Below are positions 3,239 through 37,601 of a stretch of 64,000 bases of DNA, piece after piece (positions within the stretch are counted from its first letter, which is position 1; each line of letters begins with the position of its first letter). Origin of the DNA: Escherichia phage PECP14. The stretch lies in sequence record OQ870555.1; one strand, 5' to 3'. A model generated the notes under the pieces. It had not been told where the DNA came from. It searched no databases and was given only the letters and a program-made list of their open reading frames with translations. A program made the position numbers and the translations under genes.

Positions 3239-4013
3239 TATTATTTTTCTCCAATAGTTCTTTAATCGACAGGATTTCTATCCCATTCGTTTCGGCTTTC
3301 TTATAAGATGAGGAAGAACGTTTTGATTCATCCTCACAGATTAGGTATTTGACGTCTTTGGTAACGGACTTCTTAACCGTATATCCTAGACTTTCTAAAT
3401 AGTTTGTTGCATCCGTTCGATTTGCAAAATCTTGCAAAGATCCGGTAATACAGACCGTGATTCCATTTGGCTGGGTAACTAAATCATCTGTAATGATGAT
3501 ATCCGCTTTAGCACCTCGAATACCTGTTGAGAATTTCCACGGTAATTCAATAACATCCTTGCCTTGTGGGGAATTTAGCCAGGTTTTGTAATTTTCTCCA
3601 GCCTTGCCGTCAGCCTTCACATCGTGGAAGCTAGTGCAATTTTGGGACAGTTTCTTTGCTGCAACCTCTCCAATAAGAGGAATTCCTAAAGAACCGAGAA
3701 CTGAACCAAAGTCAGTGTCTCCGCGAACCTTAGTATTTAACTCGCTAATCAATTTAGCGGCAACCTTGCTACCCACAGCTCCGACCAAATCTTCTTCGGT
3801 CAGGTAAAACAGTTCTGAGATCTTAGTCAGCTCCAGCTTCTCAATAGTTTTCGGGCCAAAGCCCTTTAACTTCATTTTTGTGCAGAAGTTCTCGATTAAC
3901 TTACTTGATTGCGCTGGACAGTTGGACTTATTCCTACAGAATAATTGCCCGTTGACAAGATCTAGCTTAGAACCACAAGAGGGACATTGTGTTGGAATTT
4001 CGATTTTCATCAA
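3231..4013 (-). CDS. NAD-dependent DNA ligase, C-terminal fragment (Zn-finger/HhH/BRCT)
   Basis: CPSCGSKL..C..C zinc finger, HhH-like GIPLIGEVAAKKL, BRCT-like tail. Confidence 0.7.
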   Translation of the reverse strand: MMKIEIPTQCPSCGSKLDLVNGQLFCRNKSNCPAQSSKLIENFCTKMKLKGFGPKTIEKLELTKISELFYLTEEDLVGAVGSKVAAKLISELNTKVRGDTDFGSVLGSLGIPLIGEVAAKKLSQNCTSFHDVKADGKAGENYKTWLNSPQGKDVIELPWKFSTGIRGAKADIIITDDLVTQPNGITVCITGSLQDFANRTDATNYLESLGYTVKKSVTKDVKYLICEDESKRSSSSYKKAETNGIEILSIKELLEKNNNV

Positions 4014-4040
4014 ATTTCTTCCTTATCAATTTATATAAAT

Positions 4041-4069
4041 ATTATAACAAGTATTTAAGCATTTAGCAA
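4041..4069 (-). promoter_or_regulatory. leftward early promoter inside the ligase gap
   Basis: minus strand TTGCTA-17-TATAAT + TATAAATTGATAAGGAAG directly upstream of the ligase C-terminal ORF. Confidence 0.5.
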
Positions 4070-4212
4070 CTACAATTTTAACTAACTTTGCTTACCCTCG
4101 CCATAACTTTCTATCCCTCAACTGAATGATAATAGTATATACCTAAGCGGCGAAAATGTCAATAACCACTTTATAATTCCGACATGGTAAACGGGTAGCA
4201 AAGGGTTACGAA

Positions 4213-5184
4213 TTAGTCGTATACTCGCTCTACTATACAAGGGATTACACCACCAGCACGAATCACTCGAATCTGGCAACCGATCTCTAAATCGAGAGCG
4301 TTAATATAATCAACGTTATTAAGAGTTGCTTTAACGATTGTGGCATCATCAATAATCACCGGCTCGAAATAACCAACTGGAGTTACTTTACCAGAAGCCC
4401 CTACTTGCCATTCAACTTTAACAAGTGTGGTAATTTCGCCTTCTTCATCCTCTTTAATAGCAAATGCGCCACGAGGAAATTTATTAGTCCAACCTTCACG
4501 GAAGAATTTGTTGTTATCATTAATACGAACAACTTTACCATCTGTCGGAATCCATTTAAAGAAGGAACGAACATTAACAACTGTCAAGAAGTTCTCATTC
4601 TCTAGCCAAAGCATATCTTTTAAATAGGCTTCTGTAATACCGACTGTTTCCGCTGAACACTGGATACCATATGCAACGAAGATTAAACCACCTTCACCAA
4701 TACGTTGGATGAAATCATCGCTGTCTTTCAGGTTAATAGCACCTGAAGCGTAGTTACGTTTGTTCTCTACTTCTTTAGTAATGAGAACTTCACCAGTGAT
4801 TTGAGTTGGAACTTTTTGGGAAATAGTTTTAGGGATGTTCAGCATTTTAACATTATGCGTTACATCATTCCCTAGAATACCGTTACCACGAGTTAACGCT
4901 TGAACAAATTCACCATTAATATATAATAGAGAAATCGCACAACCATCTAACTTATCAGTTTCAACCTGACCTAATGGATTGAATGGAGCTTTATCACCGC
5001 GACCGTAATAGACTTTCTGCAAAGAATACATACGATACAAATGAGGAATATCACCTTTCGGTCCGATTTCTTCCTCCAGTGGGAATCTTTTAATCAGACG
5101 ATCATATTCTTCATCGGAAATAAGACTCATTCCCTGGTAGTACGCTTCTTGACAACGTTTGATAAAGTCTTTTACATTATTCAT
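4213..5184 (-). CDS. NAD-dependent DNA ligase, N-terminal adenylation fragment
   Basis: KLDGCAIS (KxDG adenylation motif), OB-fold region; separate ORF upstream of the C-terminal fragment. Confidence 0.7.
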   Translation of the reverse strand: MNNVKDFIKRCQEAYYQGMSLISDEEYDRLIKRFPLEEEIGPKGDIPHLYRMYSLQKVYYGRGDKAPFNPLGQVETDKLDGCAISLLYINGEFVQALTRGNGILGNDVTHNVKMLNIPKTISQKVPTQITGEVLITKEVENKRNYASGAINLKDSDDFIQRIGEGGLIFVAYGIQCSAETVGITEAYLKDMLWLENENFLTVVNVRSFFKWIPTDGKVVRINDNNKFFREGWTNKFPRGAFAIKEDEEGEITTLVKVEWQVGASGKVTPVGYFEPVIIDDATIVKATLNNVDYINALDLEIGCQIRVIRAGGVIPCIVERVYD

Positions 5185-7693: not shown

Positions 7694-7927
7694 TTATGAT
7701 TCTTTGAGCAAAGAAGCAAGTTCAGCATAGACTTTATCTAACTCAAAGCCAATGCGAAGAGACACACGAGTCTTCCGTTGTTTAAGTAACCATATGGAGA
7801 CATTAGGGATGCCAGCGAGACGAGGTGGTACAACCCTACATAGTTTCTCCGCAGTATCGTAAACAGAAGTTTTACGTTCTTTTATGGGAAACTTCCTTGT
7901 TTCCCACTTTTTATTCTTCACTGTCAT
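7694..7927 (-). CDS. hypothetical protein
   Basis: ORF 7694-7978 trimmed to the internal Met to limit overlap with the upstream helicase gene; start uncertain. Confidence 0.35.
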   Translation of the reverse strand: MTVKNKKWETRKFPIKERKTSVYDTAEKLCRVVPPRLAGIPNVSIWLLKQRKTRVSLRIGFELDKVYAELASLLKES

Positions 7928-10700
7928 TTCTAGCTCCCAATTCAGCAAGAGCTTCCTCATGCATCTGACGTTCTTCATCTGTCATAAACTTAACTGGAAT
8001 CGGCATACATTCGATCTTACAGTAAGTTCTGTACCAGTCCACAATCTTTTCCGTATCCAGATCTTTACCGATACCCATCATGCCAAGATACATACGAGCA
8101 TATTTTGGGTTAGCGCTCTGACCTGTCTTAAGGAAGAAATCCTTCTTCTTATTCTTAAGAGCTTCGATAAACGGTTTGATTGTTACGTTTGAACACTTTT
8201 TAATATCTTCCCAGAACATCTCGTGCATCTTATGGAAAAATGCAGCTCGATCATTCGGTTTATCCTTGATATACTGTTCAACGTGTTCCACTGTTACATC
8301 TTTAATAGAATCCAGATGATAATAGCGAACCAGAAGTAACTTGGCTTCATAGGCATCTGCATGACGTGGTGCGCAATATTCAGGAGTTGAGTGCAGAATA
8401 GCTTTGATTCGCTCTTCTGTATACTCTTTGCCTGCACCTTCGATAGTCCCCCAGCTTTCACTGAAGATATCAATAGTTGCACCTTGATCGAGAAGATAAT
8501 AACGCAAAGTACTGGTATAGTTTCTAGATTCCAGCTCACGACGGCGTGCGTACAGTTGCTGAGCTAACTCAATCCAACCCTCGTCAATATTATATTGCTC
8601 GGAACCCGCAGAGAATCCACTCGTAGATTTATCAATAAAATAATAAATGTTCTGAGCACCACGGTCGCGCCTGATTGCTTGAAAACGCATGTTTGGCGCT
8701 TGGTTTGAGGTTCTAGTGATTACGAATACGTTATCAAAATAGTTAAAGTCAACACCACTCGTTACAGATGGACTACATAATAAACAATCAATCTGTTGAT
8801 CAATTAGCTCATTAGTTGTATAATCCAGAATACGTCGGATATCTACATCAGACGTAGAGTTTGAGTGAATTTCTTTAACTAACGCACCAGTATTACGACG
8901 TAATGCCATTCCCTTCTCATTCAGTTCATCCGGGCCACAGTCAGATACTAGGATTGATTTCTCCCCCATCTCTAAAGATGTTTGAAGTGCAACCCAAATA
9001 CTGGATTCATCAGGGAATTCATAAGCATGAGCTTTCGCCAGCATTTTACGGTGGTGATTATAAAATGCGACTGGTTTATCAAAATCAATCAAAGAACCAT
9101 AGGCTTCAATCGTTTCTGCACTGATATCACCATCGGATAAGATAACAGTTTTAGCAGTAATAAGGATATCACGAAGAACCTGAATACATTCACGACGGTT
9201 TTTAACAACCGGAGCGAATAACAGATCATTCATTACTGCGTCACATTCATCAATAAAGATCGTATCAATCTGACCCACAAAGCTCTTGAACTTATGGATA
9301 GAGTGAATAGTTGAAGACATACGATCAATGGCACCACGTTTGAAGTTCAGCATATCAACTGACTTATCATACTGACCAGCACCGAATTTCTTCGCGTTAG
9401 AAGATACAAGTGCCCTAGTATTTGTGATTGCAATAAAGTTTCCTGGAAGAACACCTGCATCTAGCCACTTAGTTACTGCTGTAGTTTTACCCGTACCAAG
9501 ACTTGCCTTAACAAATGTTAAATGTCCTTTTGGGGGTACAATGTTAATTTTCAGGTACGGAACTTCTGGTGGAGAATCTGTGTCTAGACGTTTTAATGGT
9601 ACACCTTTTAAGTTTGGTGGAATCTCACGTTTGGAGTTATTTACAAAGGCTTTGAGAGCCTGCTTACGACCGTTATTAAAGTAATCTTGAATATTACGAC
9701 TATTATCTTTAGTCGCAATATACTCAGATAAAGCTGGTTTAATCTCACGTTCTAACCACGTAAAGTCAACACCATCTTCTAACGCTCTGTGATAAAGTTT
9801 TGGGATAATACGCAGGTACACTCCATCCTCAGCTTCTTCTAGTTCGCTGATGGTTTCTTCCACTTTATCAGATGCAGCCTTCTTGCCTTTAATTTGATCA
9901 AGTAAGGAGTAGAACTCTTCTTTAAACTCACCTCTAGTTGTTTCAAAGTCAACTAGGTTATTAGGTAGATTCACCTTCGAACCCTTAACATATACAAGAC
10001 GTGGTTTATTCTCCGCTTTAAACGGATCGACTATACCATCATCAAATAAGGGATCTGCAAAATAGTGAAGCTGAACAGAAGAATAATAAGCTAAGTCAGC
10101 AATATCAAAGCCATACTTTTGCTTACTACTGTCATTGATAGATGTAAATAAGAACTTTAACTGTCCCTGCGTTACCTTGACATTAGATTCTAGCATTAAG
10201 TGCATTCGGATACCTGGTTTTAATCCAGCCGAAGACGATGCATGGGCAATAAACCCTGCATCAAGAGGAAACATATCCTCACTAATACTATTCAACATCT
10301 TAATAATATGACGTGCCATGCCAACAAGATTAAACTTGTCATAGCCACCAGTATCTACAATACCATCCACGTCCATAGCAATAATATGACTAGGATTGGA
10401 TACGTTAAAGTTTCCCCTGGTACGACGCACATTATCTTTTGGAGCTAAACATTTACCACGAATAGCTACAATATGCGGGTCTTTGGTAAGACGACGCATG
10501 ATAGGTAACATTTCAGCAAGGTTTTGCGGGTCAAGTTCTTCAAGTACATCAAATTTGAAGGGCATGGAAGCTGGTTTACCTTCTGGATGCTCTTTAGAGA
10601 ATCGCTTTGCAAAGGTGTAATCTTCCACTTTGATCTCTTTCCAGATGCCAGTGGCTTTATCTCTGGAAAATCCTGCGTGACCTTGTAGGATTGAGAACAC
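7911..10700 (-). CDS. SF2 helicase / replication-origin-binding-type protein
   Basis: Walker A VKASLGTGKTT, Walker B FIDECD; ORF is open to 10823 but GTG at 10698-10700 has an AGGAG 7 nt upstream. Confidence 0.55.
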   Translation of the reverse strand: MFSILQGHAGFSRDKATGIWKEIKVEDYTFAKRFSKEHPEGKPASMPFKFDVLEELDPQNLAEMLPIMRRLTKDPHIVAIRGKCLAPKDNVRRTRGNFNVSNPSHIIAMDVDGIVDTGGYDKFNLVGMARHIIKMLNSISEDMFPLDAGFIAHASSSAGLKPGIRMHLMLESNVKVTQGQLKFLFTSINDSSKQKYGFDIADLAYYSSVQLHYFADPLFDDGIVDPFKAENKPRLVYVKGSKVNLPNNLVDFETTRGEFKEEFYSLLDQIKGKKAASDKVEETISELEEAEDGVYLRIIPKLYHRALEDGVDFTWLEREIKPALSEYIATKDNSRNIQDYFNNGRKQALKAFVNNSKREIPPNLKGVPLKRLDTDSPPEVPYLKINIVPPKGHLTFVKASLGTGKTTAVTKWLDAGVLPGNFIAITNTRALVSSNAKKFGAGQYDKSVDMLNFKRGAIDRMSSTIHSIHKFKSFVGQIDTIFIDECDAVMNDLLFAPVVKNRRECIQVLRDILITAKTVILSDGDISAETIEAYGSLIDFDKPVAFYNHHRKMLAKAHAYEFPDESSIWVALQTSLEMGEKSILVSDCGPDELNEKGMALRRNTGALVKEIHSNSTSDVDIRRILDYTTNELIDQQIDCLLCSPSVTSGVDFNYFDNVFVITRTSNQAPNMRFQAIRRDRGAQNIYYFIDKSTSGFSAGSEQYNIDEGWIELAQQLYARRRELESRNYTSTLRYYLLDQGATIDIFSESWGTIEGAGKEYTEERIKAILHSTPEYCAPRHADAYEAKLLLVRYYHLDSIKDVTVEHVEQYIKDKPNDRAAFFHKMHEMFWEDIKKCSNVTIKPFIEALKNKKKDFFLKTGQSANPKYARMYLGMMGIGKDLDTEKIVDWYRTYCKIECMPIPVKFMTDEERQMHEEALAELGARNDSEE

Positions 10701-11196
10701 AACAATACTCCTATGTTGGTTATTCGGATATCTTTCTTTAGGACTATTCAAAAGAATAGAACAACTATTACTACCATTTACACAAACATTAATCATCATC
10801 AAGCAGTATGAATAAGTTATCATACCTCAGTGCTGCGCTCTCTTAACTCTTATCCAGATCAGAACCTAGGTCATTGGCCGCTAAGCCGATTCTGATTGCC
10901 CTCACTATCCTATTGGTAGGTGGCTACTGGACGTGTCACCATTCGCTGCTCTTTTCGTTCGCACCCCCATATAAAGCTCTGCCTATATAACGAGCTAAAT
11001 ATGCACGGTTTGGATTTACCTTTCCGAATTCAGGGTACGCAGATCACTTAATTGATAATTAACTAATGCAGTATAAACACTAGTAATAGTTAAAACAACC
11101 CTTAATGGGGCAGCCTAACTGTTCCGTATTGCGGATTGTAAACAAGAAAAATTAGCAAAATCAATTTTTACTAATGTCTCTCAATTCAATATAAAT

Positions 11197-11225
11197 ATTA
11201 TATCAAGATTTTGAGCATCCTGCAA
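11197..11225 (-). promoter_or_regulatory. leftward early promoter followed by long leader
   Basis: minus strand TTGCAG-17-TATAAT; ~500 nt ORF-free before the helicase ORF. Confidence 0.45.
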
Positions 11226-11316
11226 GTAAAATTTTTCCGAAGGTGCTATCAGTGTCTTTGAGCACAGAGAAAACCGAGTCAAAACGACTCGGTAATCAGG
11301 ATTGAGCTAATGAAAA

Positions 11317-11712
11317 TCAATCATCATTTAGGCCTGGGACATAGATTCCAATGCGATTTAATCGACCTTTAGCTTCTTCGAGAATATCTTCGGTGTACTC
11401 CCAAATATCATCTTCTACTTGCAAAAGATAAGGGGATTCACCAGTTTCGGGGTCACGTGTAATGGCTAAACCACGTGGATGGAATATAGAGAAGTTGAGG
11501 GCAACAATCAAGCCCATGCTGGACAATTCATTCCAGTCAGCTTCCCAACCATCATCTTCATCTTCGTCCACAAAGACACCTACACTAGGGTCTGTTACAG
11601 AAGTAAACGGAAATGTTACACTAACCTTGTCAACCCCCAACCAACGTGCAAGGAGCCCCTCAGCACGCTCTACCAAACTAGGATCTATCTGACGCCAAAA
11701 TACTTGTTCCAT
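11317..11712 (-). CDS. hypothetical protein (paralog 1 of tandem pair)
   Basis: shares DW.EL..MGL..ALN...F.P and C-terminal G(I/Y)x(V/I)PGL with the adjacent ORF. Confidence 0.5.
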   Translation of the reverse strand: MEQVFWRQIDPSLVERAEGLLARWLGVDKVSVTFPFTSVTDPSVGVFVDEDEDDGWEADWNELSSMGLIVALNFSIFHPRGLAITRDPETGESPYLLQVEDDIWEYTEDILEEAKGRLNRIGIYVPGLNDD

Positions 11713-11721
11713 TCTGCCTCC

Positions 11722-12150
11722 TTAAGCAGTTAAACCTGGGATCATATACCCGAAACGACGAAGTTTCTGAATCCCCTCATTTACTTCTTCGGGCGAGTAT
11801 GACCAGCCCTCACGTTCATTTACCTGGAAAGCAGGAGCTTCACCAGTGCGATAATTTACAATAAGACGGTGATTTGCAGGCATAAACAGCTTATGGTTCA
11901 AGGCAAAAACCAGACCCATTTCATCAAGTTCTTTCCAGTCTACAATCTCTTCTACTCCCTCGCCTAAATCCACACTAACTCCAATACACGGAGCTTCCTC
12001 TAGCGGGCCTTTAAAGGATAAGAAGATATCGTTATTCTCACACCAAATCTTGAGCAGATTGATGGTTTCATTATACATACCATTAGGGAGAGAGCGCCAG
12101 AAGTTGAGAAGCATAGGATTTACCTCTTTCATGAAAATATTATTGAACAT
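11722..12150 (-). CDS. hypothetical protein (paralog 2 of tandem pair)
   Basis: paralogous to 11317-11712. Confidence 0.5.
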   Translation of the reverse strand: MFNNIFMKEVNPMLLNFWRSLPNGMYNETINLLKIWCENNDIFLSFKGPLEEAPCIGVSVDLGEGVEEIVDWKELDEMGLVFALNHKLFMPANHRLIVNYRTGEAPAFQVNEREGWSYSPEEVNEGIQKLRRFGYMIPGLTA

Positions 12151-12152: not shown

Positions 12153-12692
12153 TTATACCTTAAGTTTCTGAAGAGCCTTACACATTTCAAGATCTGGACT
12201 AAATTCCAGCATATAGCTGATAGCATTTAAATCTTGAAGGTTTATTCCAGTCCTGCCATTTACAATAACAGTAGGAAATTGGTACATCATAGCACCAGCA
12301 TCATCTAGGACGCACCAATGCTTGAGCTTATGTTTTTCTACGAAACGTAAGACAGAATTACCCCGAGATAAACCACCTCCAGTAAAATCTGTTGTACCAA
12401 GAAAACGATCGATCAAACCGAGTCCGGTCATAATCTGAACGTTCTCCATTTCATTTCGTACAGAAAACCATGAAGATACCCCAACAATCATTATTGGGGA
12501 TGGCTTAAGAAAGTTCTGAAAAGCCTGGAGTAATGGCTTGTAAACCCAATCACCACCAAAGAATAGCTTCTCACTATCTGGAGCATGATGGTGAGAGATG
12601 CTCGAATTGAGCACCCCATCAATATCCAGGAAAATCACAGGAGTATTACTTATTTCCACCAGTAGCATCCCACGTCCAGACTTTAACTTCAT
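12153..12692 (-). CDS. HAD-superfamily hydrolase/phosphatase-like
   Basis: motif I VIFLDIDGVLN near N-terminus. Confidence 0.45.
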   Translation of the reverse strand: MKLKSGRGMLLVEISNTPVIFLDIDGVLNSSISHHHAPDSEKLFFGGDWVYKPLLQAFQNFLKPSPIMIVGVSSWFSVRNEMENVQIMTGLGLIDRFLGTTDFTGGGLSRGNSVLRFVEKHKLKHWCVLDDAGAMMYQFPTVIVNGRTGINLQDLNAISYMLEFSPDLEMCKALQKLKV

Positions 12693-12831: not shown

Positions 12832-12994
12832 ATTCTCCCTCCTTAATAAGGAACTCTTTCCATTCTGCTGTATCCTCATAGATAACGCAGAAATCATCAC
12901 TCTTCCATGAGAAGTCATCAGTAGCAAATTCGAAACGGTAGCACCAACTACCGTCTGGCCATACTAAAAGATCACACATGCTTTTCTGGGACAT
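12812..12994 (-). CDS. hypothetical small protein
   Basis: internal Met start with GGAGGG SD; acidic C-terminus. Confidence 0.35.
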   Translation of the reverse strand: MSQKSMCDLLVWPDGSWCYRFEFATDDFSWKSDDFCVIYEDTAEWKEFLIKEGEYGEEDF

Positions 12995-13823
12995 AAATAT
13001 TTCCCTCCATAAAAGCTTCAACTTGATCAATAAAGTGTTTATTACCAAAAACTTCGGCAGCTCCAGCACGCCATACAGTAACACCACGTTTCTCATACTC
13101 AAGCTGTTCGTCATAACGAACTTGTGGGTTAACAACCATCATCTTAGTTCCACGACATACAGCAGGAAATAGCTCCCAGTTGAAGTCGATTACTTGGTTG
13201 CTACAACCTACTACAATAACCATATCATTGCTAGTAAGTGTATCAAACAGGTTAATCTGACCCATATACCACGGAGCCGTCTCACCAAAGAATGTTACGT
13301 TTGGTTTTACCCATTCGTAATCCTCAGGGGCAATCGCAGTATACCCAACATCTTCGATGATTTGGTTGCGACCCTGACGATAGATCACCTCTTTCAAGTA
13401 CCCGTGAGCGTGAATGATTTCATCACGAGGGATACCAGCACGTTCCAGAAGGTCATCAACGTTAGTAGTGAAGTTCTTCACGCTATCCTCACCATAACGC
13501 TGGAACCATTCTGCAATTCGCAGATGGGCAATGTTAGGCTCAACAGTCTGTAATTCCTGACGACGCATGTTGTAGAACTCATGAGTCTTGAGATACAGAT
13601 CGTTACCATCTTTATCAATGCCAGGGAAACGAGCACTGAAGTAGTTAGGATCATCTTCACCACAGAAGCGACGGAAGCCAGCTTCAAAGTTAGGCAAGCT
13701 ACATACTTCCTCTAGATCGTACTCATCCCACAAGGATTTCCCACTAGCAGTATCAGTACGGAAAGCACGAACACCACTATCTACACTCAAACCTGCACCA
13801 CTAACAACGATTAGTCTACGCAT
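12972..13823 (-). CDS. Sir2-like NAD-dependent deacylase/ADP-ribosyltransferase
   Basis: GAGLSVDSGVRAFR (Rossmann NAD motif), TTNVDDL (TQNID-like), catalytic HG. Confidence 0.65.
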   Translation of the reverse strand: MRRLIVVSGAGLSVDSGVRAFRTDTASGKSLWDEYDLEEVCSLPNFEAGFRRFCGEDDPNYFSARFPGIDKDGNDLYLKTHEFYNMRRQELQTVEPNIAHLRIAEWFQRYGEDSVKNFTTNVDDLLERAGIPRDEIIHAHGYLKEVIYRQGRNQIIEDVGYTAIAPEDYEWVKPNVTFFGETAPWYMGQINLFDTLTSNDMVIVVGCSNQVIDFNWELFPAVCRGTKMMVVNPQVRYDEQLEYEKRGVTVWRAGAAEVFGNKHFIDQVEAFMEGNIYVPEKHV

Positions 13824-30381: not shown

Positions 30382-30456
30382 CGGGGTGTAGTCTAAGGGA
30401 TAGGCAGGAGTCTTCTAAATTCCTTTATGCAGGTTCGAATCCTGTCACCTCGGCCA
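30382..30456 (+). tRNA. tRNA-Arg(TCT)
   Basis: hand-folded cloverleaf; AC loop CTTCTAA; T-arm GCAGG-TTCGAAT-CCTGT; CCA encoded. Confidence 0.6.
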
Positions 30457-30694
30457 ATTTTATTAACTGCTAGGAAAATAAAGTGAAAACACGATATATA
30501 GTAAAAGTAGTAGGTGAACATTCACAAGTAAATACCACCGATGTTACAGCGCTAGCATTTGAAGTAGTCTCCGGTATAGTCATATTTCATAACGGAGATA
30601 TCAAAGCTCCTGAATTTGCTGTGGATGCTAGCCTGTTTATTTCTGCAACTAAAGTAACTGTAGTAGCTAACTCTTCTAAATAATAAGGAAATAT

Positions 30695-31639
30695 ATGTTT
30701 ACTAAAAACACTAAAGAACTGACTTCCGATCAAAAAGTAATTCGTACTATTAAACGTTGGGGTGTTGGTGCTGTAGTTGGTCTTGGCGCTCTTATTCTGG
30801 CTCTCAATTCCTATACAGTTGTTCAGGACGGTACGGTTAAAACTCAGACTTTCCTGGGTAAAGTTAGTCCTAATCCTGTATTGCCGGGGTTCCATATTGT
30901 CAACCCATTCGCCTCTTTTGATACTTTTAGTACGAAAGATATTTCTATGAAACTGGATAAACTTCAGGTTCCTAGCCAGGATAAGTTTAAGTCTACAGTT
31001 GACATTACCGTTATGTTGCAGTTTGATGGTGCTAAAGCTCCTATGAACCGTGTTAACGCAGGTACTCAGGATCAAGCTCTGAACAAGTACGTTGAAGAGA
31101 AGATGCTGTCTACGATTCGTGAGTTTGGTAAGTCTGTACCAAAAGCACAAGATCTGTTCGACGCTAAGATTCAGGCTCAACTGCAAACCGCTATTCAGCA
31201 AGAAGTAGAAGAGTATGCGCGTCCTTATGGTTACACCGTTAAGCAAGTATTCCTTCAGGATATTACTCTGCCACCGGTAATCATGGAACAGGTACAGAAC
31301 ACCAAAGTTCGTGAAGAACAAGTTAACGCTGCAAAAGCTGAACTGGCTCGTGTTGAACAAGAAGCACAGCAGAAAGTTAAGCAAGCTGAGGCAGATCGTT
31401 CCGCTCGTGAAAACATGGCAGTAGCTAACGAACGTGACGCAGATGCTAAACTGTACGCAGCTAAGAAAGAAGCTGAAGCTAACGCCGCTCTGCAACGTAC
31501 CATTACTCCTGAAATGATTCGTTGGAAGCAGCTGGAAGTTGAAATGCTTCGTGCTGAAAAATACCAAGGGGGTGTACCACAGACTGTTGTCGGTACTGGC
31601 TACGATGGTCAAATGATCATGGATATGCGTAACAAGTAA
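30695..31639 (+). CDS. SPFH/band-7 (prohibitin/HflK-like) membrane protein
   Basis: N-terminal TM helix, SPFH core, long Ala/Glu/Gln coiled-coil tail; two terminators downstream. Confidence 0.65.
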   Translation: MFTKNTKELTSDQKVIRTIKRWGVGAVVGLGALILALNSYTVVQDGTVKTQTFLGKVSPNPVLPGFHIVNPFASFDTFSTKDISMKLDKLQVPSQDKFKSTVDITVMLQFDGAKAPMNRVNAGTQDQALNKYVEEKMLSTIREFGKSVPKAQDLFDAKIQAQLQTAIQQEVEEYARPYGYTVKQVFLQDITLPPVIMEQVQNTKVREEQVNAAKAELARVEQEAQQKVKQAEADRSARENMAVANERDADAKLYAAKKEAEANAALQRTITPEMIRWKQLEVEMLRAEKYQGGVPQTVVGTGYDGQMIMDMRNK

Positions 31640-31662
31640 TAGTTACACGTAATCTTCGAACC

Positions 31663-31698
31663 AAGCCCGCGTTTCCTTCGAGAGCGCGGGCTTTTCTG
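31663..31698 (+). terminator. intrinsic terminator after SPFH gene
   Basis: AGCCCGCG...CGCGGGCT stem + TTTTCTG. Confidence 0.6.
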
Positions 31699-31714
31699 TA
31701 TTTAAGGCAAAAGA

Positions 31715-31754
31715 AAAAGCCCCTTACCTTTCGGCAGGGGCTTTTGTTTTTTGG
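31715..31754 (+). terminator. second, possibly bidirectional terminator
   Basis: AAAAAGCCCCT...AGGGGCTTTTGTTTTTT at the convergence point of plus and minus genes. Confidence 0.6.
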
Positions 31755-31959
31755 TTTAGAACCATACTCTCTTGTTACAACAACCACTCATACGGGAGAC
31801 CAATCTTGACTGAAAATCTACTCTAGGGGGCAGGATAAGAGTAGGCTTAAAGGCAAACGGATTGAACACCGGTATTTGTGTAAACATTGCTGGAGAGCAA
31901 CAACGTGCTACAGGTATTGGGCAGCACGAAACAGATTTTCTGCAACACATAATTCCTCC

Positions 31960-32376
31960 TTAGGAGTTATTACCGCCATTTTGAGCTTTTGCAACTTGGC
32001 TTTGGCAGAAGCTATTAAACTTACCCATAAGTGCTACAAGCTGTTTCCCATCCTCTGTCTTTGCGAAGTCTTCGAAAAGGGCTAGTACTGCCTGTCCTTC
32101 CGCAGAAACCTGCGGTTGTTGGGTTTGTTGCTGAACTTGCTGCTGAGGCACCTGTTGCTGCATTTGTTGAGGCATTTGCGACTGCCCGCTCATTTGCTGC
32201 ATCATTTGCATAGGACTCACACTTCCAGGGTTTTGCTGGAGTTGCTGCTGCATCTGTTGCGCTTCTGCTAAACGCTGTTGCAACTGTTGTAGGTAAGGGT
32301 TATCCAGACCCGGAATGGGCTGCTGAGAGCCCATTGGTTGATTAAATCCGTTGTTCACAAAACCATATTTACTCAT
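31960..32376 (-). CDS. glutamine-rich low-complexity protein
   Basis: over 30% Gln with poly-Q(M/P) tracts; convergent with neighbouring plus-strand genes. Confidence 0.45.
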   Translation of the reverse strand: MSKYGFVNNGFNQPMGSQQPIPGLDNPYLQQLQQRLAEAQQMQQQLQQNPGSVSPMQMMQQMSGQSQMPQQMQQQVPQQQVQQQTQQPQVSAEGQAVLALFEDFAKTEDGKQLVALMGKFNSFCQSQVAKAQNGGNNS

Positions 32377-32398
32377 AATGGGCTCCTCCCCTTAAAGA

Positions 32399-33400
32399 TT
32401 AGGCTGGTACTTTAGCCTGTAGAGCTGCTAGAGTCTGAGTAATTGCACCCAGGCTTACAGCGATTTGATTGATTACCTGACCGTTTGCACCGCTACCTGC
32501 AGCGATTGCTTCACGCAGACGGCATTCATTCAGTTCGTCTTGGATACGCGCAGTAGTTACACCAGCAATCGCAGTCTGAAGTTCGCAGCAGCACTCAGCA
32601 AGCTGACGTTCGATAGCGTTCTGGTTAGCACACATCTGAGCCTGAACAGCGGCAAACTGGTTGTTAGTCTGAAGAGACTGCTGGAAAGCAATCTGGGCAG
32701 AGTCAAACTTGTCTTGTGCACGAGCGATCTGGTTAGCAGCGAAAGCTTGATCCATCTGGCGAGAAAGATCGAACTGACCCTGAATAACGTTACGAGTTTC
32801 CTGACAGATCTGGTTGGACAGGTTAGCACCAGTACCATACACAGTAGTCAGAATCTGTTGAGTGCTAGAAGCTTGAGCAGCACCTACACCATTAACAGCG
32901 CTCAGAACAGCACCAGTACCTTGATTCGCTTCGGTACGAGCAGTGTTGATTGCAGCTAGAATACTTGCAGTATCCTGGTTAGATAGGATAGCATCCACAG
33001 CAGTTCCCTCAGCGGCAACACCAGCACCACGTCCGAAACCACCGAAACCACCGAATCCGCCTGTTAATAGAGCACCAATCAGGATAGCTCCGAATAGACC
33101 CATACCTTCACCGCCGAAAGCACCATTTGCTACTGCTGGGTAACCACCCATCAGACCTGGGAAGCCGCTAGTGAATACGTTTACTGGTTCTTGCATTTTA
33201 TGTTTCCTATGTTTATGACAGCCCTCATGGTCGTCATCTTCATCATCTTCATCGTCATCATCGTGATCACGATGTTTCTTTTCGTAGGCCTTGACCTTCT
33301 CCCACTTATGTTTGTCTGATTCCTCATGACGTCTCAGTTCTGCTGCGACTTCACTGACGGTCTCAGGTTTCTTAGTTGCTTCTTCTGTCATTTTTGACAC
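32399..33400 (-). CDS. hypothetical protein: acidic/His-rich N-term, Gly-zipper segment, Ala/Gln-rich domain
   Basis: DDDDEDDEDDDHEGCHKHRKHK then GGFGGFGGFGRG; TTGACA-type promoter and AGGAGGTG SD upstream. Confidence 0.5.
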   Translation of the reverse strand: MSKMTEEATKKPETVSEVAAELRRHEESDKHKWEKVKAYEKKHRDHDDDDEDDEDDDHEGCHKHRKHKMQEPVNVFTSGFPGLMGGYPAVANGAFGGEGMGLFGAILIGALLTGGFGGFGGFGRGAGVAAEGTAVDAILSNQDTASILAAINTARTEANQGTGAVLSAVNGVGAAQASSTQQILTTVYGTGANLSNQICQETRNVIQGQFDLSRQMDQAFAANQIARAQDKFDSAQIAFQQSLQTNNQFAAVQAQMCANQNAIERQLAECCCELQTAIAGVTTARIQDELNECRLREAIAAGSGANGQVINQIAVSLGAITQTLAALQAKVPA

Positions 33401-33459
33401 CTCCTAGTATATAGAAAATGTGTGTCTCTTTGATCACTCATCTATAACATATACTTTAC

Positions 33460-33500
33460 ACTACCCCAGCGAAAATGTCAAGGGGTCTTTAAAAATTGCC
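33460..33500 (-). promoter_or_regulatory. leftward sigma70-like promoter for the convergent module
   Basis: minus strand CCTTGACATTTT...TAAAGT, then TAGGAGGTG SD before 33400 ATG; coordinates approximate. Confidence 0.4.
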
Positions 33501-33597
33501 CCCGGATTTTTAGTGGGATAACAATTTCTGGACCTCACCACTCACCTGCTACCCTTAAGTGCCCTGCGATTTTCCACTAAAAAGTTTAAAAATTCGA

Positions 33598-33626
33598 TTG
33601 CTTGAATGCTAAATTCTCTGTATAAT
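33598..33626 (+). promoter_or_regulatory. early promoter cassette
   Basis: TTGCTT-17-TATAAT + TTATAAATTTGAGAGAGGAA. Confidence 0.55.
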
Positions 33627-33656
33627 ATATTTATAAATTTGAGAGAGGAATCAAAT

Positions 33657-34712
33657 ATGATTAAGACTGGTCTAGTAATTGGTAAGTTCGCACCATTAAC
33701 GCGTGGTCATATTAACCTAATAAACACAGCAGCAACTATGTGTGAACGAGTTATTGTTGTAGTTAGTCATGATAATCGTTGGCTGGATAAGCAGAACACA
33801 CGTGATCAGGAAGTATTACAGTTAAAGAATCGACTTCGTTGGTTAGAACAAACTTACGCGGATATTGAGCACGTTTCGGTAGAGTACATTATTGAAGATG
33901 ATATTCCTGAATATCCGAATGGTTGGCCGGAATATGCTAGAATCCTTAATGAAAATTATGGACATTTGCCTGAGATCACCATTTTCTCTAGCGAACTAGA
34001 CTATGATGCAGAATATAAGAAATATCTGCCGAAGTTTGGTCATTATATTGTAGATTCTGATCGGACTCGTGTTCCAATCTCAGCTACAATGATTCGTAAT
34101 GATCTTATGAAGTATTGGGAGTTTCTTCCTAGCGTAGTTCGTAAAGATTACGTGCGTAAGGTTGTAATCATTGGGACTGAAAGCTCAGGCAAAACAACTT
34201 TAACAAAGTACCTTGCGAAATTATATAATACTTCGTGGGTAGAAGAATATGGTCGTACTTACTGCGAAGTTGATCTAGTTGGTAATGAAGAACTCCTGAC
34301 TAGCGAGGACTATAATAAAATTGCATTCAGGCACAAAGAGCTAGAGTTTGAGGCAGAACGTACTGCAAATAAGATCATGTTTGTAGACACAAATGCTTTC
34401 ATTACAGAGTTTTATCACAGACTTTACGAGCATCGTAAAAATCCGGTTGTAACAGCTATTGCTAAAGAAGAGCATTATGATTTAGTTATAGTTTTAGCAC
34501 CTACTGTTAAGTGGGTAGATGATGGTTTACGTATTAACTCCGATCGTTCAATTACTTCTGAACTGTTCGAGCAGATGAAGAAAGAATTTCCTAATCAGTT
34601 TCCAGAAGGGCGTACTGTATATATTGACTCCCCGGACTATAAGGTTCGTATGGACGAAGCAGTAAACGCAGTAGACTGGCTGATTCATCACTTTAACGTT
34701 GGAGAGTTTTAA
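33657..34712 (+). CDS. NadR-like NMN adenylyltransferase / ribosylnicotinamide kinase
   Basis: GKFAPLTRGH (HxGH nucleotidyltransferase) and GTESSGKTTL (Walker A kinase). Confidence 0.65.
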   Translation: MIKTGLVIGKFAPLTRGHINLINTAATMCERVIVVVSHDNRWLDKQNTRDQEVLQLKNRLRWLEQTYADIEHVSVEYIIEDDIPEYPNGWPEYARILNENYGHLPEITIFSSELDYDAEYKKYLPKFGHYIVDSDRTRVPISATMIRNDLMKYWEFLPSVVRKDYVRKVVIIGTESSGKTTLTKYLAKLYNTSWVEEYGRTYCEVDLVGNEELLTSEDYNKIAFRHKELEFEAERTANKIMFVDTNAFITEFYHRLYEHRKNPVVTAIAKEEHYDLVIVLAPTVKWVDDGLRINSDRSITSELFEQMKKEFPNQFPEGRTVYIDSPDYKVRMDEAVNAVDWLIHHFNVGEF

Positions 34713-34713
34713 T

Positions 34714-35391
34714 ATGACTAACTATCTTGTAAATGACTTTAAAAACTGGAAACCTTTGGAATATCTGTGGCTGTTTATAGCAGTCGCCTTTATTAGTTTA
34801 GCTAACTATAATGGTACAGCTCTAGATTGGGCTACTGCAATAACCAACGTGGTTTGTGTTATTCTGGTTGCAAAAGGACGTGTTTCCAACTATATTTGGG
34901 GCTTAGTTGGTGTTCTTACCTATGGTATTACAGCTTTAAACGCAGATCTTTATGGTAACGCTGCACTAAACCTGCTATACTACGTTCCTATGCAGTTTTA
35001 TGGAATGTACTTATGGCATAAAAATAAGCCAAGTAATCTGCCAGATGTTCCAACTAAGGTTCTGACTAAAGCCCAAGCTCTGCTGACTCTAGGGATTCTA
35101 GCAGTAGCCACGTTAGGGTATGGTAGTTTCTTAGCTACTACGGCTGATCCATTCCCAATGTTGGATGCATTTACTGCGGTAGGTAGTGTGATCGCTATGT
35201 GGCTTATGGTTAAGCAGTATGCCGAGCAGTGGCTGATCTGGATTGCTATTAACATTGGTACTGTATATATTTGGCTTGTAACTGCCCAGTCTACGGGTGC
35301 TTCTTATGCAATCCTAGCAATGTGGCTGGTGTTCTTAGGTAACTCTATTATGGGAGCCTATAAAGGCTACTTTGTAAGAGTTAACAAATAA
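34714..35391 (+). CDS. pnuC: PnuC-like nicotinamide riboside transporter
   Basis: polytopic membrane protein with PnuC-like W/Y-rich helices; directly follows NadR-like gene. Confidence 0.6.
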   Translation: MTNYLVNDFKNWKPLEYLWLFIAVAFISLANYNGTALDWATAITNVVCVILVAKGRVSNYIWGLVGVLTYGITALNADLYGNAALNLLYYVPMQFYGMYLWHKNKPSNLPDVPTKVLTKAQALLTLGILAVATLGYGSFLATTADPFPMLDAFTAVGSVIAMWLMVKQYAEQWLIWIAINIGTVYIWLVTAQSTGASYAILAMWLVFLGNSIMGAYKGYFVRVNK

Positions 35392-35396
35392 AGTAG

Positions 35397-35425
35397 TTAT
35401 AGCCCTCTAAGCGAGGGCTATTATA
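35397..35425 (+). terminator. hairpin terminator after pnuC
   Basis: ATAGCCCTC-TAAGC-GAGGGCTAT. Confidence 0.5.
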
Positions 35426-35438
35426 CAGAAATTTTCAC

Positions 35439-35467
35439 TTGCTTTATATAGAAAATTTCTGTATAAT
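35439..35467 (+). promoter_or_regulatory. early promoter cassette
   Basis: TTGCTT-17-TATAAT; near-identical leader to the 33598 copy. Confidence 0.55.
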
Positions 35468-35497
35468 ATATTTATAAATTTGAGAGAGGAATCAAAC

Positions 35498-35794
35498 ATG
35501 AAACACATTGTACTTGCATTGACTCTAGTATCTACTTCTGTATTTGCTGCTCCACAACAGGAACTTTGTCAAGTTCAAGTTTGTAATAAGCTAGAACGAT
35601 TTACTCTAGACATTTGGTCGCACATTAAAGATAATATGGGTGAACAGTGTTTTGATATTGTTCTGCCAAAAGAACAAGCTGTTCCTGGGGCTGTTCTCAG
35701 CTCAGAATCACGTTGGTGGCAGGGTTCTTCTATCAACCCAACTAAGAAGTCAGTGACACGTATCAAACAAGTATATCAGTGCAATGTTCAGTAA
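35498..35794 (+). CDS. small secreted Cys-containing protein
   Basis: signal peptide MKHIVLALTLVSTSVFAAP. Confidence 0.45.
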   Translation: MKHIVLALTLVSTSVFAAPQQELCQVQVCNKLERFTLDIWSHIKDNMGEQCFDIVLPKEQAVPGAVLSSESRWWQGSSINPTKKSVTRIKQVYQCNVQ

Positions 35795-35802
35795 AATTTC
35801 AC

Positions 35803-35831
35803 TTGCTTAATGCCGAAATTTTCTGTATAAT
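35803..35831 (+). promoter_or_regulatory. early promoter cassette preceding tRNA-Ser
   Basis: TTGCTT-17-TATAAT. Confidence 0.55.
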
Positions 35832-35845
35832 ATATTCATAAATTC

Positions 35846-35939
35846 GGAAGATTAACCCTAAAGGTAAGGGAGCTGTTTGCTAAACAGCCAGTAGCTGTGG
35901 AGACACGGTGTGCCAGTTCGAATCTGGCATCTTCCTCCA
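35846..35939 (+). tRNA. tRNA-Ser(GCT)
   Basis: acceptor GGAAGAT/ATCTTCC; AC loop TTGCTAA; long variable arm; follows promoter. Confidence 0.7.
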
Positions 35940-35944
35940 AATTT

Positions 35945-36022
35945 GGTTCTCAAGCTCATTTGGTATGAGCCGTCGCCTCATAAGCGAAAGGTAGGTAGGT
36001 TCGAATCCTCCGGGAGCCACCA
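35945..36022 (+). tRNA. tRNA-Met/Ile2(CAT)
   Basis: D-stem GCTC/GAGC; AC loop CTCATAA; T-loop TTCGAAT; CCA encoded. Confidence 0.55.
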
Positions 36023-36039
36023 ATTAACTAGGAGACTAT

Positions 36040-36225
36040 ATGTCTAGATTCTATGAAATGAAGAAAGCATTAGAAGAATGTCGGTGTAAGGATTGTCATG
36101 GTGGTGGTAGGCAGGATGATGCAGAACCTGGGGATATTTTCTGTAGAGAATGGGAATGTCCTACATGTAAAGGTACTGGTATCAACCCTGAATATGCAAT
36201 TTGTCTAGACATTGAGCGAGGCTAA
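36040..36225 (+). CDS. small Cys-rich (zinc-ribbon-like) protein
   Basis: CRCKDC...CREWECPTC. Confidence 0.4.
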   Translation: MSRFYEMKKALEECRCKDCHGGGRQDDAEPGDIFCREWECPTCKGTGINPEYAICLDIERG

Positions 36226-36565
36226 GATGGATATTTTTACTACTCCGGCAATAAACCTTTTAGGTGTTGGCTTGTTCCAAGCTACGGTGTATCGTACTGA
36301 TGATTCTACTGATGTGGTAACGTTCATCGTACCTGAGTTCTTCCTAGAAAAGTTCTTTGAAGAGTTTGAGCAGTTCCGTGAAGAACACAATGCTCATTCC
36401 GATATGGAAGATCTAGCAGCTATGTTCCCTGTGGTTTACGGCTATATCTTTGAAGGTAATGGCCTAGATCTTAATAAATCTGAACTCGTTGAACTTAATT
36501 GGGGCATCAATTTTGAAGTTGGCTCTCCATTCCCTCGATATTTCCAGGGTTTAGAGATTCGCTAA
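36212..36565 (+). CDS. hypothetical protein
   Basis: ORF. Confidence 0.45.
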   Translation: MSEAKMDIFTTPAINLLGVGLFQATVYRTDDSTDVVTFIVPEFFLEKFFEEFEQFREEHNAHSDMEDLAAMFPVVYGYIFEGNGLDLNKSELVELNWGINFEVGSPFPRYFQGLEIR

Positions 36566-36573
36566 GATTACAT

Positions 36574-36650
36574 GGGGGTGTAATCGAATTGGCATAGGTA
36601 CTGGACTTAAAATTCAGGTTTTGTGGGTTCGAATCCCACCACCCCTACCA
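36574..36650 (+). tRNA. tRNA, anticodon TAA (isotype uncertain)
   Basis: acceptor GGGGGTG/CACCCCT; T-arm GTGGG-TTCGAAT-CCCAC; AC loop CTTAAAA with short variable loop. Confidence 0.5.
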
Positions 36651-36665
36651 AATTAAGGAAATAAA

Positions 36666-36788
36666 ATGAAAGCTATTAAGAAAGCACTACGTAAATTTAT
36701 GTACTGTCGTTTTCATAGCATCAAGACTTCAACTAATGGTACGACTTATGATCGCTATGATCCTAAGTTTGGCTTACATTCTAAATAA
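36666..36788 (+). CDS. small hypothetical protein
   Basis: 40-codon ORF with AAGGAAA SD after a tRNA. Confidence 0.3.
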   Translation: MKAIKKALRKFMYCRFHSIKTSTNGTTYDRYDPKFGLHSK

Positions 36789-36801
36789 CTGGAGATAATA
36801 A

Positions 36802-37008
36802 ATGGCTAATCCTGAAATTACTGCACAGCGCTTTATGCTGAAAGGTATTATTGCTGAAGCAGGCATGACAGAAGAAGTTGCAGATTTTCAAAAGCAGTTC
36901 CTAAATATTCTCACTCAAGCCAAAGAGCTAGGAGAGAAAGAACATGGCGCGGCTATTATGGCAATCACATTGGTTGGGCTTGATCTGGCAGAAGAATCAG
37001 GAGTTTAA
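36802..37008 (+). CDS. hypothetical protein
   Basis: ORF. Confidence 0.4.
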   Translation: MANPEITAQRFMLKGIIAEAGMTEEVADFQKQFLNILTQAKELGEKEHGAAIMAITLVGLDLAEESGV

Positions 37009-37038
37009 CTCCTCCAAGCAGAAATTTTAAAAATGTAC

Positions 37039-37068
37039 TTGCTTTTTACTTAAGATTTCTGCTATAAT
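37039..37068 (+). promoter_or_regulatory. early promoter cassette
   Basis: TTGCTT-18-TATAAT. Confidence 0.5.
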
Positions 37069-37098
37069 AGTTATATAAATTGATGAAGGAGTTAACGA

Positions 37099-37374
37099 AT
37101 GTCAAAACGTGTTACTGCAACTGGTGTTGAAAGTGCTGTTTGTAAATCCTGGGGTGGCTGGGAAGGTGAGATTGAATGGCTTTATTTCTACGATGTAGAA
37201 CTTCTGCCGGAAGTCAAAGCTAAATGTGTGGAAGCTGGTATGGCTCCTGATGCAAAGGCTGATATCGAAATCACCATGACTAAGCTAGAAGGTCGTGTAA
37301 TTACGCTCAATGATGATTATGAAGAAGTGTTCGAGCTTCCATTCAAACTGAGTGTCACCCCTAGCTTCGAGTAA
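37099..37374 (+). CDS. hypothetical protein
   Basis: promoter cassette + AAGGAG SD. Confidence 0.45.
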   Translation: MSKRVTATGVESAVCKSWGGWEGEIEWLYFYDVELLPEVKAKCVEAGMAPDAKADIEITMTKLEGRVITLNDDYEEVFELPFKLSVTPSFE

Positions 37375-37410
37375 CTGATATAGCACTGAGCAAGTTCTTT
37401 AAAATTTGAC

Positions 37411-37594: not shown

Positions 37595-37601
37595 AATTTA
37601 A

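What the first reader, a model, noticed from the sequence alone, without database searches (positions are those of the whole stretch)
11317..12150. Tandem paralogous ORFs
Adjacent ORFs of 131 and 142 aa share an alignable core (DW.EL..MGL..ALN...F.P....I.....TGE.P) and a C-terminal G(I/Y)x(V/I)PGL motif. This indicates a local duplication followed by divergence.
Basis: seen in the sequence. Interest (0 to 1): 0.4.

Follow-up and report, generated by a model that had tools for sequence, protein, structure and literature searches.

The report
Ancient tandem DUF7415 gene pair

Summary
Window 11317-11712 (131 aa, 'A') and 11722-12150 (142 aa, 'B'), both on the minus strand, are paralogs: 31% identity over 124 aa without gaps, E 9e-21, z = 29 against shuffles.

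The window is an Epseptimavirus, a T5-like phage. A and B are the orthologs of T5.107 and T5.106. Both are already filed under Pfam DUF7415 (PF24187) and PHROG 2502.

- **Age of the duplication.** The same upstream-B, downstream-A pair occurs in Markadamsvirinae, Sugarlandvirus and phage Eos. A-type and B-type genes separate in 100/100 bootstraps. Serratia phage Slocum has a single gene at the same site.
- **Domain content.** Each protein is probably itself an internal duplication of a roughly 55-aa helix plus beta-hairpin unit, giving four domain copies. Only A's C-terminal copy keeps the family's near-invariant motif; B's is degenerate.
- **Selection and expression.** Both genes are under purifying selection. 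They close an early operon (Sir2, HAD, B, A, terminator) with tight spacing.
- **Experimental data.** A published CRISPRi-ART screen lists T5.107 among 17 fitness genes of T5.

Function remains unknown. My best guess is a co-expressed binding module acting in replication or nucleotide metabolism.

The parts
11317..11712 (-). Gene A, 131 aa, pI 4.05; ortholog of T5.107; two DUF7415 units. The C-terminal unit (about residues 58-106) carries the canonical family motif.
   Evidence: ORF. Pfam PF24187 98.1 bits with 2 stretches; the halves score 44.4 and 57.7 bits. PHROG 2502 E 3.7e-58. AF2 pLDDT 91.6. Motif table. T5 synteny.
11722..12150 (-). Gene B, 142 aa, pI 4.74; ortholog of T5.106; two DUF7415 units. 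The C-terminal unit has a degenerate motif (His to Met, GLA to NHR). The first 11 residues are predicted disordered.
   Evidence: ORF. Pfam 125.5 bits with 2 stretches; the halves score 73.3 and 56.6 bits. PHROG 2502 E 7.2e-60. AF2 pLDDT 88.2. Motif table.
11713..11724 (-). B stop codon plus 9-nt spacer carrying the ribosome-binding site of A. The mRNA reads TAAGGAGGCAGA followed by ATG, so the Shine-Dalgarno sequence overlaps the B stop codon.
   Evidence: Read directly from the sequence. T5 has the same 9-nt gap. Sugarlandvirus has a 4-nt overlap instead.
11273..11293 (-). Intrinsic terminator-like hairpin (ACCGAGTC-GTTTT-GACTCGGT followed by TTTCTCTG), 24 nt after the stop codon of A; the end of the operon.
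   Evidence: A terminator is annotated at the equivalent place after T5.107 in T5 and after the single gene in phage Slocum.
12153..12692 (-). Upstream operon neighbour: capless HAD phosphatase (HAD_SAK_2), ortholog of T5.105. Its stop codon lies 2 nt before the start of B.
   Evidence: Pfam PF18143 E 4.4e-19; coordinates.
12972..13823 (-). Upstream operon neighbour: Sir2-family protein, ortholog of T5.102.
   Evidence: Pfam PF02146 E 1.2e-21 and PHROG 2162 E 1.4e-107. Sir2 precedes the DUF7415 gene or genes in T5, Sugarlandvirus and Slocum.

Best explanation
Shown: A and B are the products of one ancient tandem duplication of a gene for a small acidic alpha/beta protein built from two DUF7415 units. 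Each unit is a conserved Trp, a helix and a beta-hairpin, and the protein ends in a further helix. The duplication happened before Markadamsvirinae, Sugarlandvirus and Eos-like phages diverged. Both copies have been kept under purifying selection as the last two cistrons of an early operon (Sir2 ... HAD, B, A, terminator), just upstream of the replication-origin-binding gene. After the duplication the copies diverged in complementary ways. A kept the near-invariant family motif in its C-terminal unit (S, GL, N, HP, GLA, G-x-S, W-x-Y) but changed its N-terminal half. B kept the ancestral-looking N-terminal half but lost the motif. Inferred, about 25-30% likely: the two tightly spaced genes make a stoichiometric A:B complex. 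In this complex the canonical unit of A supplies the one functional binding site for a conserved partner or ligand of the phage replication or nucleotide-metabolism apparatus, and B acts as a degenerate scaffold or regulatory partner. Free-standing single-unit DUF7415 proteins of other phages would form the same arrangement as homodimers.
For: Paralogy. Family membership; all 112 single-unit cluster representatives scanned, out of the 150 best of 159 hits, are DUF7415. Internal repeat: each half passes Pfam's cut-off on its own. In an independent test, the N-half profile against the single-unit profile gives hhalign probability 70%, E 4e-5, over 52 columns in the expected register. Both AF2 models repeat the helix-hairpin unit. 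Age and order: a syntenic B-A pair in T5, Sugarlandvirus and Eos. Sug_up scores 185/199 against B/T5.106 but 79/70 against A/T5.107. The bootstrap split is 100/100. There is one gene at the same site in Slocum, with its N-half nearer B (62 vs 32) and its C-half nearer A (154 vs 122). Selection: dN/dS 0.235 for A and 0.10 for B against T5. Operon: 2-nt and 9-nt gaps, a Shine-Dalgarno sequence over the B stop codon, and a terminator. Motif asymmetry. Fitness: T5.107 is one of 17 'Fit' genes in the CRISPRi-ART screen (fitness -2.90, P 0.0215), while T5.106 is not (P 0.167) (PMC11879866 supplement). Replication and nucleotide context: between nrdD and nrdG in Jiaodavirus, next to nudE in RB43, and next to replication gene A in 54 of 80 contigs that are mostly of P2-like prophage size and gene content. 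Rare fusions occur to dATP/dGTP pyrophosphohydrolase, thymidylate kinase and ASCH.
Confidence: 0.55

Rival explanations
1. A and B are host-takeover or anti-defence inhibitors. On this reading they are small, acidic, early-made proteins that bind and block a conserved host protein or immune sensor, and the duplication lets the phage cover two targets or variants.
Against: The roughly 45-residue motif is conserved to an unusual degree across unrelated phage groups, which is not typical of fast-evolving anti-defence proteins. T5.107 affected fitness on a laboratory host carrying no added defence system. The AcrIC4 match is not significant. The PADLOC search was empty, although that library covers defence proteins rather than anti-defence proteins.
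Confidence: 0.25
2. A and B are trans-acting accessory subunits, cap-like specificity or regulatory modules, of the enzymes encoded just upstream: the capless HAD phosphatase and/or the Sir2 protein.
Confidence: 0.08
3. The two genes were acquired separately by horizontal transfer from different donors and only happen to be adjacent.
For: DUF7415 genes are widespread and mobile among phages.
Against: The two-unit architecture with the C-terminal helix and the G-x-x-x-P-G-L tail is shared by A and B. In the searches run here it appeared only in Demerecviridae. Order and spacing are conserved in three lineages. A single-copy form sits at the same site in Slocum.
Confidence: 0.05
4. The similarity is chance or compositional, or the ORFs are not real genes.
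For: None found.
Against: z = 29 against shuffles; E 9e-21. Orthologs occur in more than 500 phage records. dN/dS is well below 1. The predicted folds are confident.
Confidence: 0.01

Closest known systems
Phage T5 genes T5.106 and T5.107 (hypothetical proteins YP_006934 / YP_006935)
   Same: Same order, the same 2-nt and 9-nt spacings, the same operon (Sir2, small ORFs, HAD, pair, terminator, origin-binding protein) and the same lengths (142 aa; 130 vs 131 aa). B is about 73% identical to its T5 counterpart and A about 66%.
   Different: A different genus (Epseptimavirus rather than Tequintavirus). Nothing functional separates them. T5.107 has a published weak fitness phenotype, which has not been tested in this phage.
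Pfam PF24187 (DUF7415) / PHROG 2502, 3954, 1812, 33705
   Same: Both proteins score far above the Pfam cut-off, with two stretches each, and match PHROG 2502 end to end. The C-terminal unit of A carries the family's near-invariant residues.
   Different: Most family members (112 of the 150 best of 159 clusters at 50% identity) have one unit, either free-standing at 60-110 aa or occasionally fused to other domains. The two-unit form and the tandem pair appeared only in T5-like phages. B and both N-terminal units lack the canonical motif.
Single-copy two-unit gene of Serratia phage Slocum (CPT_Slocum_143)
   Same: The same site (after Sir2, before a terminator and the origin-binding gene) and the same two-unit architecture with a canonical C-terminal unit.
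   Different: One gene instead of two. Its N-half resembles B and its C-half resembles A, as expected of an unduplicated or ancestral-like state. A secondary loss cannot be excluded.
C2B cap domains of HAD phosphatases (e.g. 1xvi, 1nf2, 3niw) and the Nup54 ferredoxin-like domain (7tbj)

Membership tests
Pfam PF24187 DUF7415 | Whole-protein score above the curated gathering cut-off (27 bits) | tested here: met
   A 98.1 bits and B 125.5 bits, two stretches each. Each half alone passes: A-N 44.4, A-C 57.7, B-N 73.3, B-C 56.6 bits.
Pfam PF24187 DUF7415 | Near-invariant residues of the single-unit family (at least 90% in 112 cluster representatives): S of NELS, GL, N, HP, GLA, G-x-S, D, Y | tested here: met
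   Met by the C-terminal unit of A (DWNELSSMGLIVALNFSIFHPRGLAITRDPETGESP...WEY). Not met by the C-terminal unit of B (S to D, H to M, GLA to NHR). Not met by either N-terminal unit, which an HMM of single-unit proteins does not detect.
PHROG 2502 | End-to-end match to the family profile | tested here: met
   A residues 1-130 on profile 4-134, E 3.7e-58. B residues 11-142 on profile 2-134, E 7.2e-60.
Orthologs of T5.106 / T5.107 | Conserved synteny and reciprocal closest similarity | tested here: met
   Same operon order and spacings. SW scores: win_A-T5.107 470 against win_A-T5.106 161; win_B-T5.106 593 against win_B-T5.107 157.
Internal tandem repeat (two homologous units per protein) | N-terminal half detectably homologous to the C-terminal half, independently of the Pfam model | tested here: inconclusive
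   Pairwise halves are not significant. N-profile against C-profile fails. N-profile against the single-unit profile gives probability 70%, E 4e-5, in the correct register. The predicted secondary structure repeats helix plus hairpin.
'Tail tube protein' / 'exonuclease' (labels on some GenBank orthologs) | Any profile or fold match to tail tube proteins or nucleases | tested here: not met
   No such Pfam, PHROG or NCBIfam match and no such fold match above noise. The gene lies in the early replication region, not the structural module. The labels are annotation errors.
HAD C2B cap domain | Significant structural superposition on a cap domain | tested here: not met
   [not shown]
Anti-CRISPR AcrIC4 | Significant sequence or fold similarity | tested here: not met
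   [not shown]
Known anti-phage defence proteins (PADLOC) | Match to any PADLOC model | tested here: not met
   No match at E up to 1.

The most novel reading that the evidence does not exclude
DUF7415 is a phage-specific fold with no solved relative. Its canonical copy (A / T5.107) binds a conserved component of the replication or nucleotide-supply machinery and is needed for normal T5-like phage growth. B would be a degenerate paralog retained as an obligatory partner, which would make the pair a natural 'active subunit plus pseudo-subunit' heterodimer derived from an ancestral homodimer.
Probability: 0.25. Interest if true: 0.5.

Novelty: already known. Interest (0 to 1): 0.27.

Why it matters
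The practical value is modest. The pair is identical or nearly identical to genes present in hundreds of sequenced T5-like phages, and it is already grouped in one Pfam and one PHROG family, so the paralogy itself is catalogued.

This check adds four things:
- The duplication is old and conserved across genera.
- A single-copy state exists in phage Slocum.
- Only one of the four domain copies keeps the family's invariant motif.
- That copy corresponds to T5.107, one of the few T5 genes of unknown function with a measured fitness effect.

Together these make T5.107 and its partner a sensible, well-defined target for anyone trying to assign functions to the conserved dark matter of a classical model phage. 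The work also flags wrong database labels on these genes ('tail tube protein', 'exonuclease') and on the neighbouring HAD gene ('Sir2').

Tried and rejected
1. Pairwise alignment of the N- and C-halves within and between A and B is not significant. Profile-profile comparison of N against C halves of the T5-type proteins also failed; it aligned only the N-terminal W-helix with the last W-helix, probability 4-21%.
2. An HMM built from single-unit homologs does not find the N-halves.
3. PDB by sequence, with single proteins and with profiles, gave only compositional LRR noise for B and nothing else.
5. NCBIfam and PADLOC gave no match.
6. Literature searches for 'DUF7415' and for 'T5.106 / T5.107 / T5.105' in main texts found no paper. 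The NAD+/ADPr virus survey and the HIDEN-SEQ preprint do not discuss this locus.
7. A HAD-DUF7415 linkage beyond Markadamsvirinae was not seen in any other locus inspected: absent in Sugarlandvirus, Slocum and RB43 (the 178-aa neighbour there is GmrSD_N), and three genes away in Aeh1.
8. Fusion partners as a clue to function are too few and too mixed: DUF550 x2, DUF3850/ASCH x2, and one each of Cox, thymidylate kinase, PGDYG, DUF551 and zf-ClpX, out of 112.
9. The very long repetitive proteins in the exhaustive search (P0055, P0078, P0083 and others, many stretches at profile positions 84-129) look like chance matches of 'DG-W-Y-T' repeat units to the 'DG-W-E-Y' end of the motif. I did not test this and left them out.

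Full report
**1. What is in the sequence**

Two ORFs lie on the minus strand: 11722..12150 (142 aa, here 'B', upstream) and 11317..11712 (131 aa, here 'A', downstream).

BLASTP aligns them without gaps over 124 residues at 31% identity, E 9e-21. The Smith-Waterman score is 170, against 28.1 +/- 4.9 (maximum 61) for 2000 shuffles, z = 29. The similarity is significant in each half separately: N-halves z 7.6, C-halves z 25.

The quoted motifs are present. The one slip is that the 'I' column is I in A and L in B. A profile of the family finds only these two copies in the six-frame translation of the whole window.

**2. Where the window comes from**

The segment is 98.8% identical to Salmonella phage 3-29 and to many other Epseptimavirus genomes (T5-like phages, Demerecviridae). 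The window also carries the expected cluster of 28 tRNA genes.

In phage T5 the orthologs are T5.106 (142 aa, the counterpart of B) and T5.107 (130 aa, the counterpart of A), both annotated as hypothetical. Reciprocal scores confirm the orthology: A-T5.107 470 against A-T5.106 161, and B-T5.106 593 against B-T5.107 157.

**3. Operon anatomy**

- The HAD gene upstream (12153..12692, Pfam HAD_SAK_2) stops 2 nt before the start of B.
- B stops 9 nt before the start of A, and the Shine-Dalgarno sequence of A (TAAGGAGG) overlaps the stop codon of B.
- A terminator-like hairpin lies 24 nt after A, at 11293-11273.
- T5 has the same spacings and an annotated terminator at the same place.
- In Sugarlandvirus the two genes overlap by 4 nt.

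The operon runs from the terminator after nrdD (14572-14548) through small ORFs, Sir2 (12972..13823), more small ORFs, HAD, B and A. The large replication-origin-binding gene follows after a non-coding gap of about 450-570 nt, depending on which start codon is used.

**4. Family**

Both proteins match Pfam PF24187 (DUF7415, a 53-position model) with two stretches each, at 98.1 and 125.5 bits. Both match PHROG 2502 end to end. NCBIfam and PADLOC give nothing.

An exhaustive HMMER search of 1.84 billion cluster representatives with a profile of A, B and their orthologs found only 159 clusters. About 20 are two-unit proteins of 128-162 aa. The rest contain a single unit of about 55 aa with a strikingly conserved motif: IDWNxxSxxGLIxRINxEILHPLGLAxxRxPxTGxSxGxLVAxDGxWEY. 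In that motif S, GL, N, HP, GLA, G-x-S, D and Y are at least 90% conserved. All 112 single-unit representatives scanned are DUF7415. Fusions are rare and mixed (details).

**5. Internal duplication**

Each half of each protein passes Pfam's cut-off on its own: 44.4, 57.7, 73.3 and 56.6 bits.

I tested this independently, because the Pfam seed may already contain these N-halves.
- Pairwise and N-against-C profile comparisons fail.
- An HMM of single-unit proteins does not detect the N-halves.
- The N-half profile against the single-unit profile gives hhalign probability 70%, E 4e-5, over 52 columns in the register Trp6 to Trp60.
- The AlphaFold models agree on topology. For A (pLDDT 91.6): strand, helix 11-25, hairpin 29-33/45-49, strand, short helix, helix 68-80, hairpin 82-84/96-98, helix 108-121. 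B (pLDDT 88.2) has the same order of elements.

I therefore regard the two-unit reading as moderately supported. If it is correct, the locus holds four copies of the unit, from a domain duplication followed by a gene duplication.

**6. Copy number and age of the gene duplication**

tblastn finds two places in every Markadamsvirinae record listed.

- Klebsiella Sugarlandvirus phages carry a syntenic pair after nrdD and Sir2, with no HAD.
- Bacteriophage Eos also has an adjacent pair.
- The upstream gene of Sugarlandvirus is clearly B-type (185/199 against 79/70). The downstream gene is A-type, though less clearly (154/188 against 140/121).
- In a neighbour-joining analysis the downstream genes of the three lineages separate from the upstream genes in 100 of 100 bootstraps.
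- Serratia phage Slocum, also Demerecviridae, has a single two-unit gene of 164 aa at the same site (Sir2, gene, terminator, origin-binding gene), and no second copy in the 8.4 kb examined.
- The N-half of the Slocum gene is nearer B (62 against 32) and its C-half nearer A (154 against 122). Single-copy forms make a third group in the tree.

The simplest reading is one old duplication followed by complementary divergence. A secondary loss in the Slocum lineage is not excluded.

**7. Asymmetric divergence and selection**

The C-terminal unit of A keeps every near-invariant family residue, in this phage, in T5 and largely in Sugarlandvirus. The C-terminal unit of B has S to D, H to M, GLA to NHR and RD to VN, and the Sugarlandvirus and Eos-like B-type genes are more degenerate still.

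Both genes are nevertheless constrained. dN/dS against T5 is 0.235 for A and 0.10 for B. These values are rough, because dS is above 1. Both proteins are acidic, with pI 4.05 and 4.74.

**8. Fold**

**9. Experimental information**

The CRISPRi-ART study of T5 lists T5.107 among only 17 'Fit' genes, describes it as of entirely unknown function, and reports five guides with fitness -2.90 and P 0.0215. T5.106 is 'Not Fit' at -3.28, P 0.167 (PMC11879866, supplementary files 1 and 16).

The effect is small, and the guides overlap the last codons of T5.106. The screen also clearly missed some genes that look important; for example, T5.108 is 'Not Fit'. Even so, this is the only functional datum available. 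It points to the paralog that keeps the canonical motif.

**10. Context elsewhere**

Single-unit genes were found in these settings:
- between nrdD and nrdG in a Jiaodavirus;
- beside nudE in RB43;
- directly after rnlA in Aeh1;
- right after replication gene A in P2-like phages, sometimes fused to ASCH/DUF3850.

In the best 80 IMG/VR loci, most of them on contigs of P2-like prophage size and gene content:
- gene A is the immediate neighbour in 54;
- a protein with a DPPY methyltransferase motif, which I read as a Dam-type methylase (not profile-tested), follows in 16;
- a small Cys-rich protein resembling the DksA-like zinc finger annotated in the P2-like reference phages precedes in 11;
- 20 carry an ASCH-like N-terminal region.

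The common denominator is 'early region, replication and nucleotide or nucleic-acid metabolism'. This is suggestive but not specific.

**11. Mechanism**

Shown: paralogy, orthology to T5.106 and T5.107, family membership, conservation of the pair and its order, purifying selection, tight operon spacing, the asymmetric motif, and a shared predicted fold.

Inferred:
- The two proteins are made together and act as a complex.
- A supplies the functional site and B is a degenerate partner.
- Single-unit relatives act as homodimers.
- The partner or ligand belongs to replication or nucleotide metabolism.

I put the evolutionary account at about 0.9 and the functional account at about 0.25-0.3. The main rival is an anti-defence or host-takeover inhibitor, at about 0.25. 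An accessory role for the neighbouring HAD or Sir2 enzymes is about 0.08. Separate horizontal acquisition is about 0.05, and chance is excluded.

**12. Verdict**

However, the genes and their family are already catalogued, and the pair is a standard, conserved feature of T5-like phages. Novelty: already known, with function unknown. Interest is low to moderate. It is raised a little by the asymmetric degeneration, the absence of any solved structural relative, and the published fitness effect of the T5.107 ortholog.

Noticed in passing
window 12153-12692 (-): The 179-aa protein is a capless HAD phosphatase (Pfam HAD_SAK_2, E 4.4e-19), but RefSeq records of related phages label it 'Sir2 (NAD-dependent deacetylase)'. 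The wrong name seems to come from PHROG 18062. The true Sir2 is the separate gene at 12972-13823.
   Followed up: partly
window 11317-12150 (-) and orthologs in GenBank: Orthologs of A are labelled 'tail tube protein', and orthologs of B 'exonuclease' or 'tail tube protein', in a number of GenBank/UniRef records. No profile or fold evidence supports either name.
   Followed up: yes
L010 (Serratia phage Slocum, MN095770.1) 3914-4408: This T5-like phage has one two-unit DUF7415 gene where the window has two, and it lacks nrdD and the HAD gene at this locus. Its N-half resembles B and its C-half resembles A.
   Followed up: yes
[not shown]
   Followed up: partly
window 30382-45022 (+): A cluster of 28 tRNA genes, typical of T5-like phages. 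It includes three tRNA-Met and duplicated Ala, Gln, Gly, Lys, Leu, Ser and Arg genes.
   Followed up: no
window 7911-10823 (-) and 10824-11272: The mechanical ORF for the replication-origin-binding protein is 970 aa, but related phages annotate 929 aa (2790 nt). The first roughly 40 codons are therefore probably not translated. That leaves a non-coding gap of about 450-570 nt between the terminator after gene A and this gene. T5 annotates a promoter in the equivalent gap.
   Followed up: no
proteins P0055, P0078, P0083, P0086, P0108, P0119 and others: Very long repetitive proteins (493-4520 aa) hit the profile many times, but only at positions 84-129. Their 'DG-W-Y-T-(A/P)-D' repeat units resemble the 'DG-W-E-Y' end of the DUF7415 motif. 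I think these are chance matches rather than homologs, but did not test this.
   Followed up: partly
L008 (Aeromonas phage Aeh1) 5127-6529: In Aeh1 the single-unit DUF7415 gene (ORF299c) directly follows RNA ligase 1 (rnlA), with no gap. A HAD_SAK_2-like gene (ORF303c) lies three genes upstream, next to td. This hints at an RNA-repair context, which I did not pursue.
   Followed up: no
L011-L090 (IMG/VR loci): In loci that look like P2-like prophages, the DUF7415 gene sits beside replication gene A. It is often followed by a protein with a DPPY methyltransferase motif and preceded by a small Cys-rich zinc-finger-like protein. A quarter of the loci are fused to an ASCH/DUF3850 domain.
   Followed up: partly
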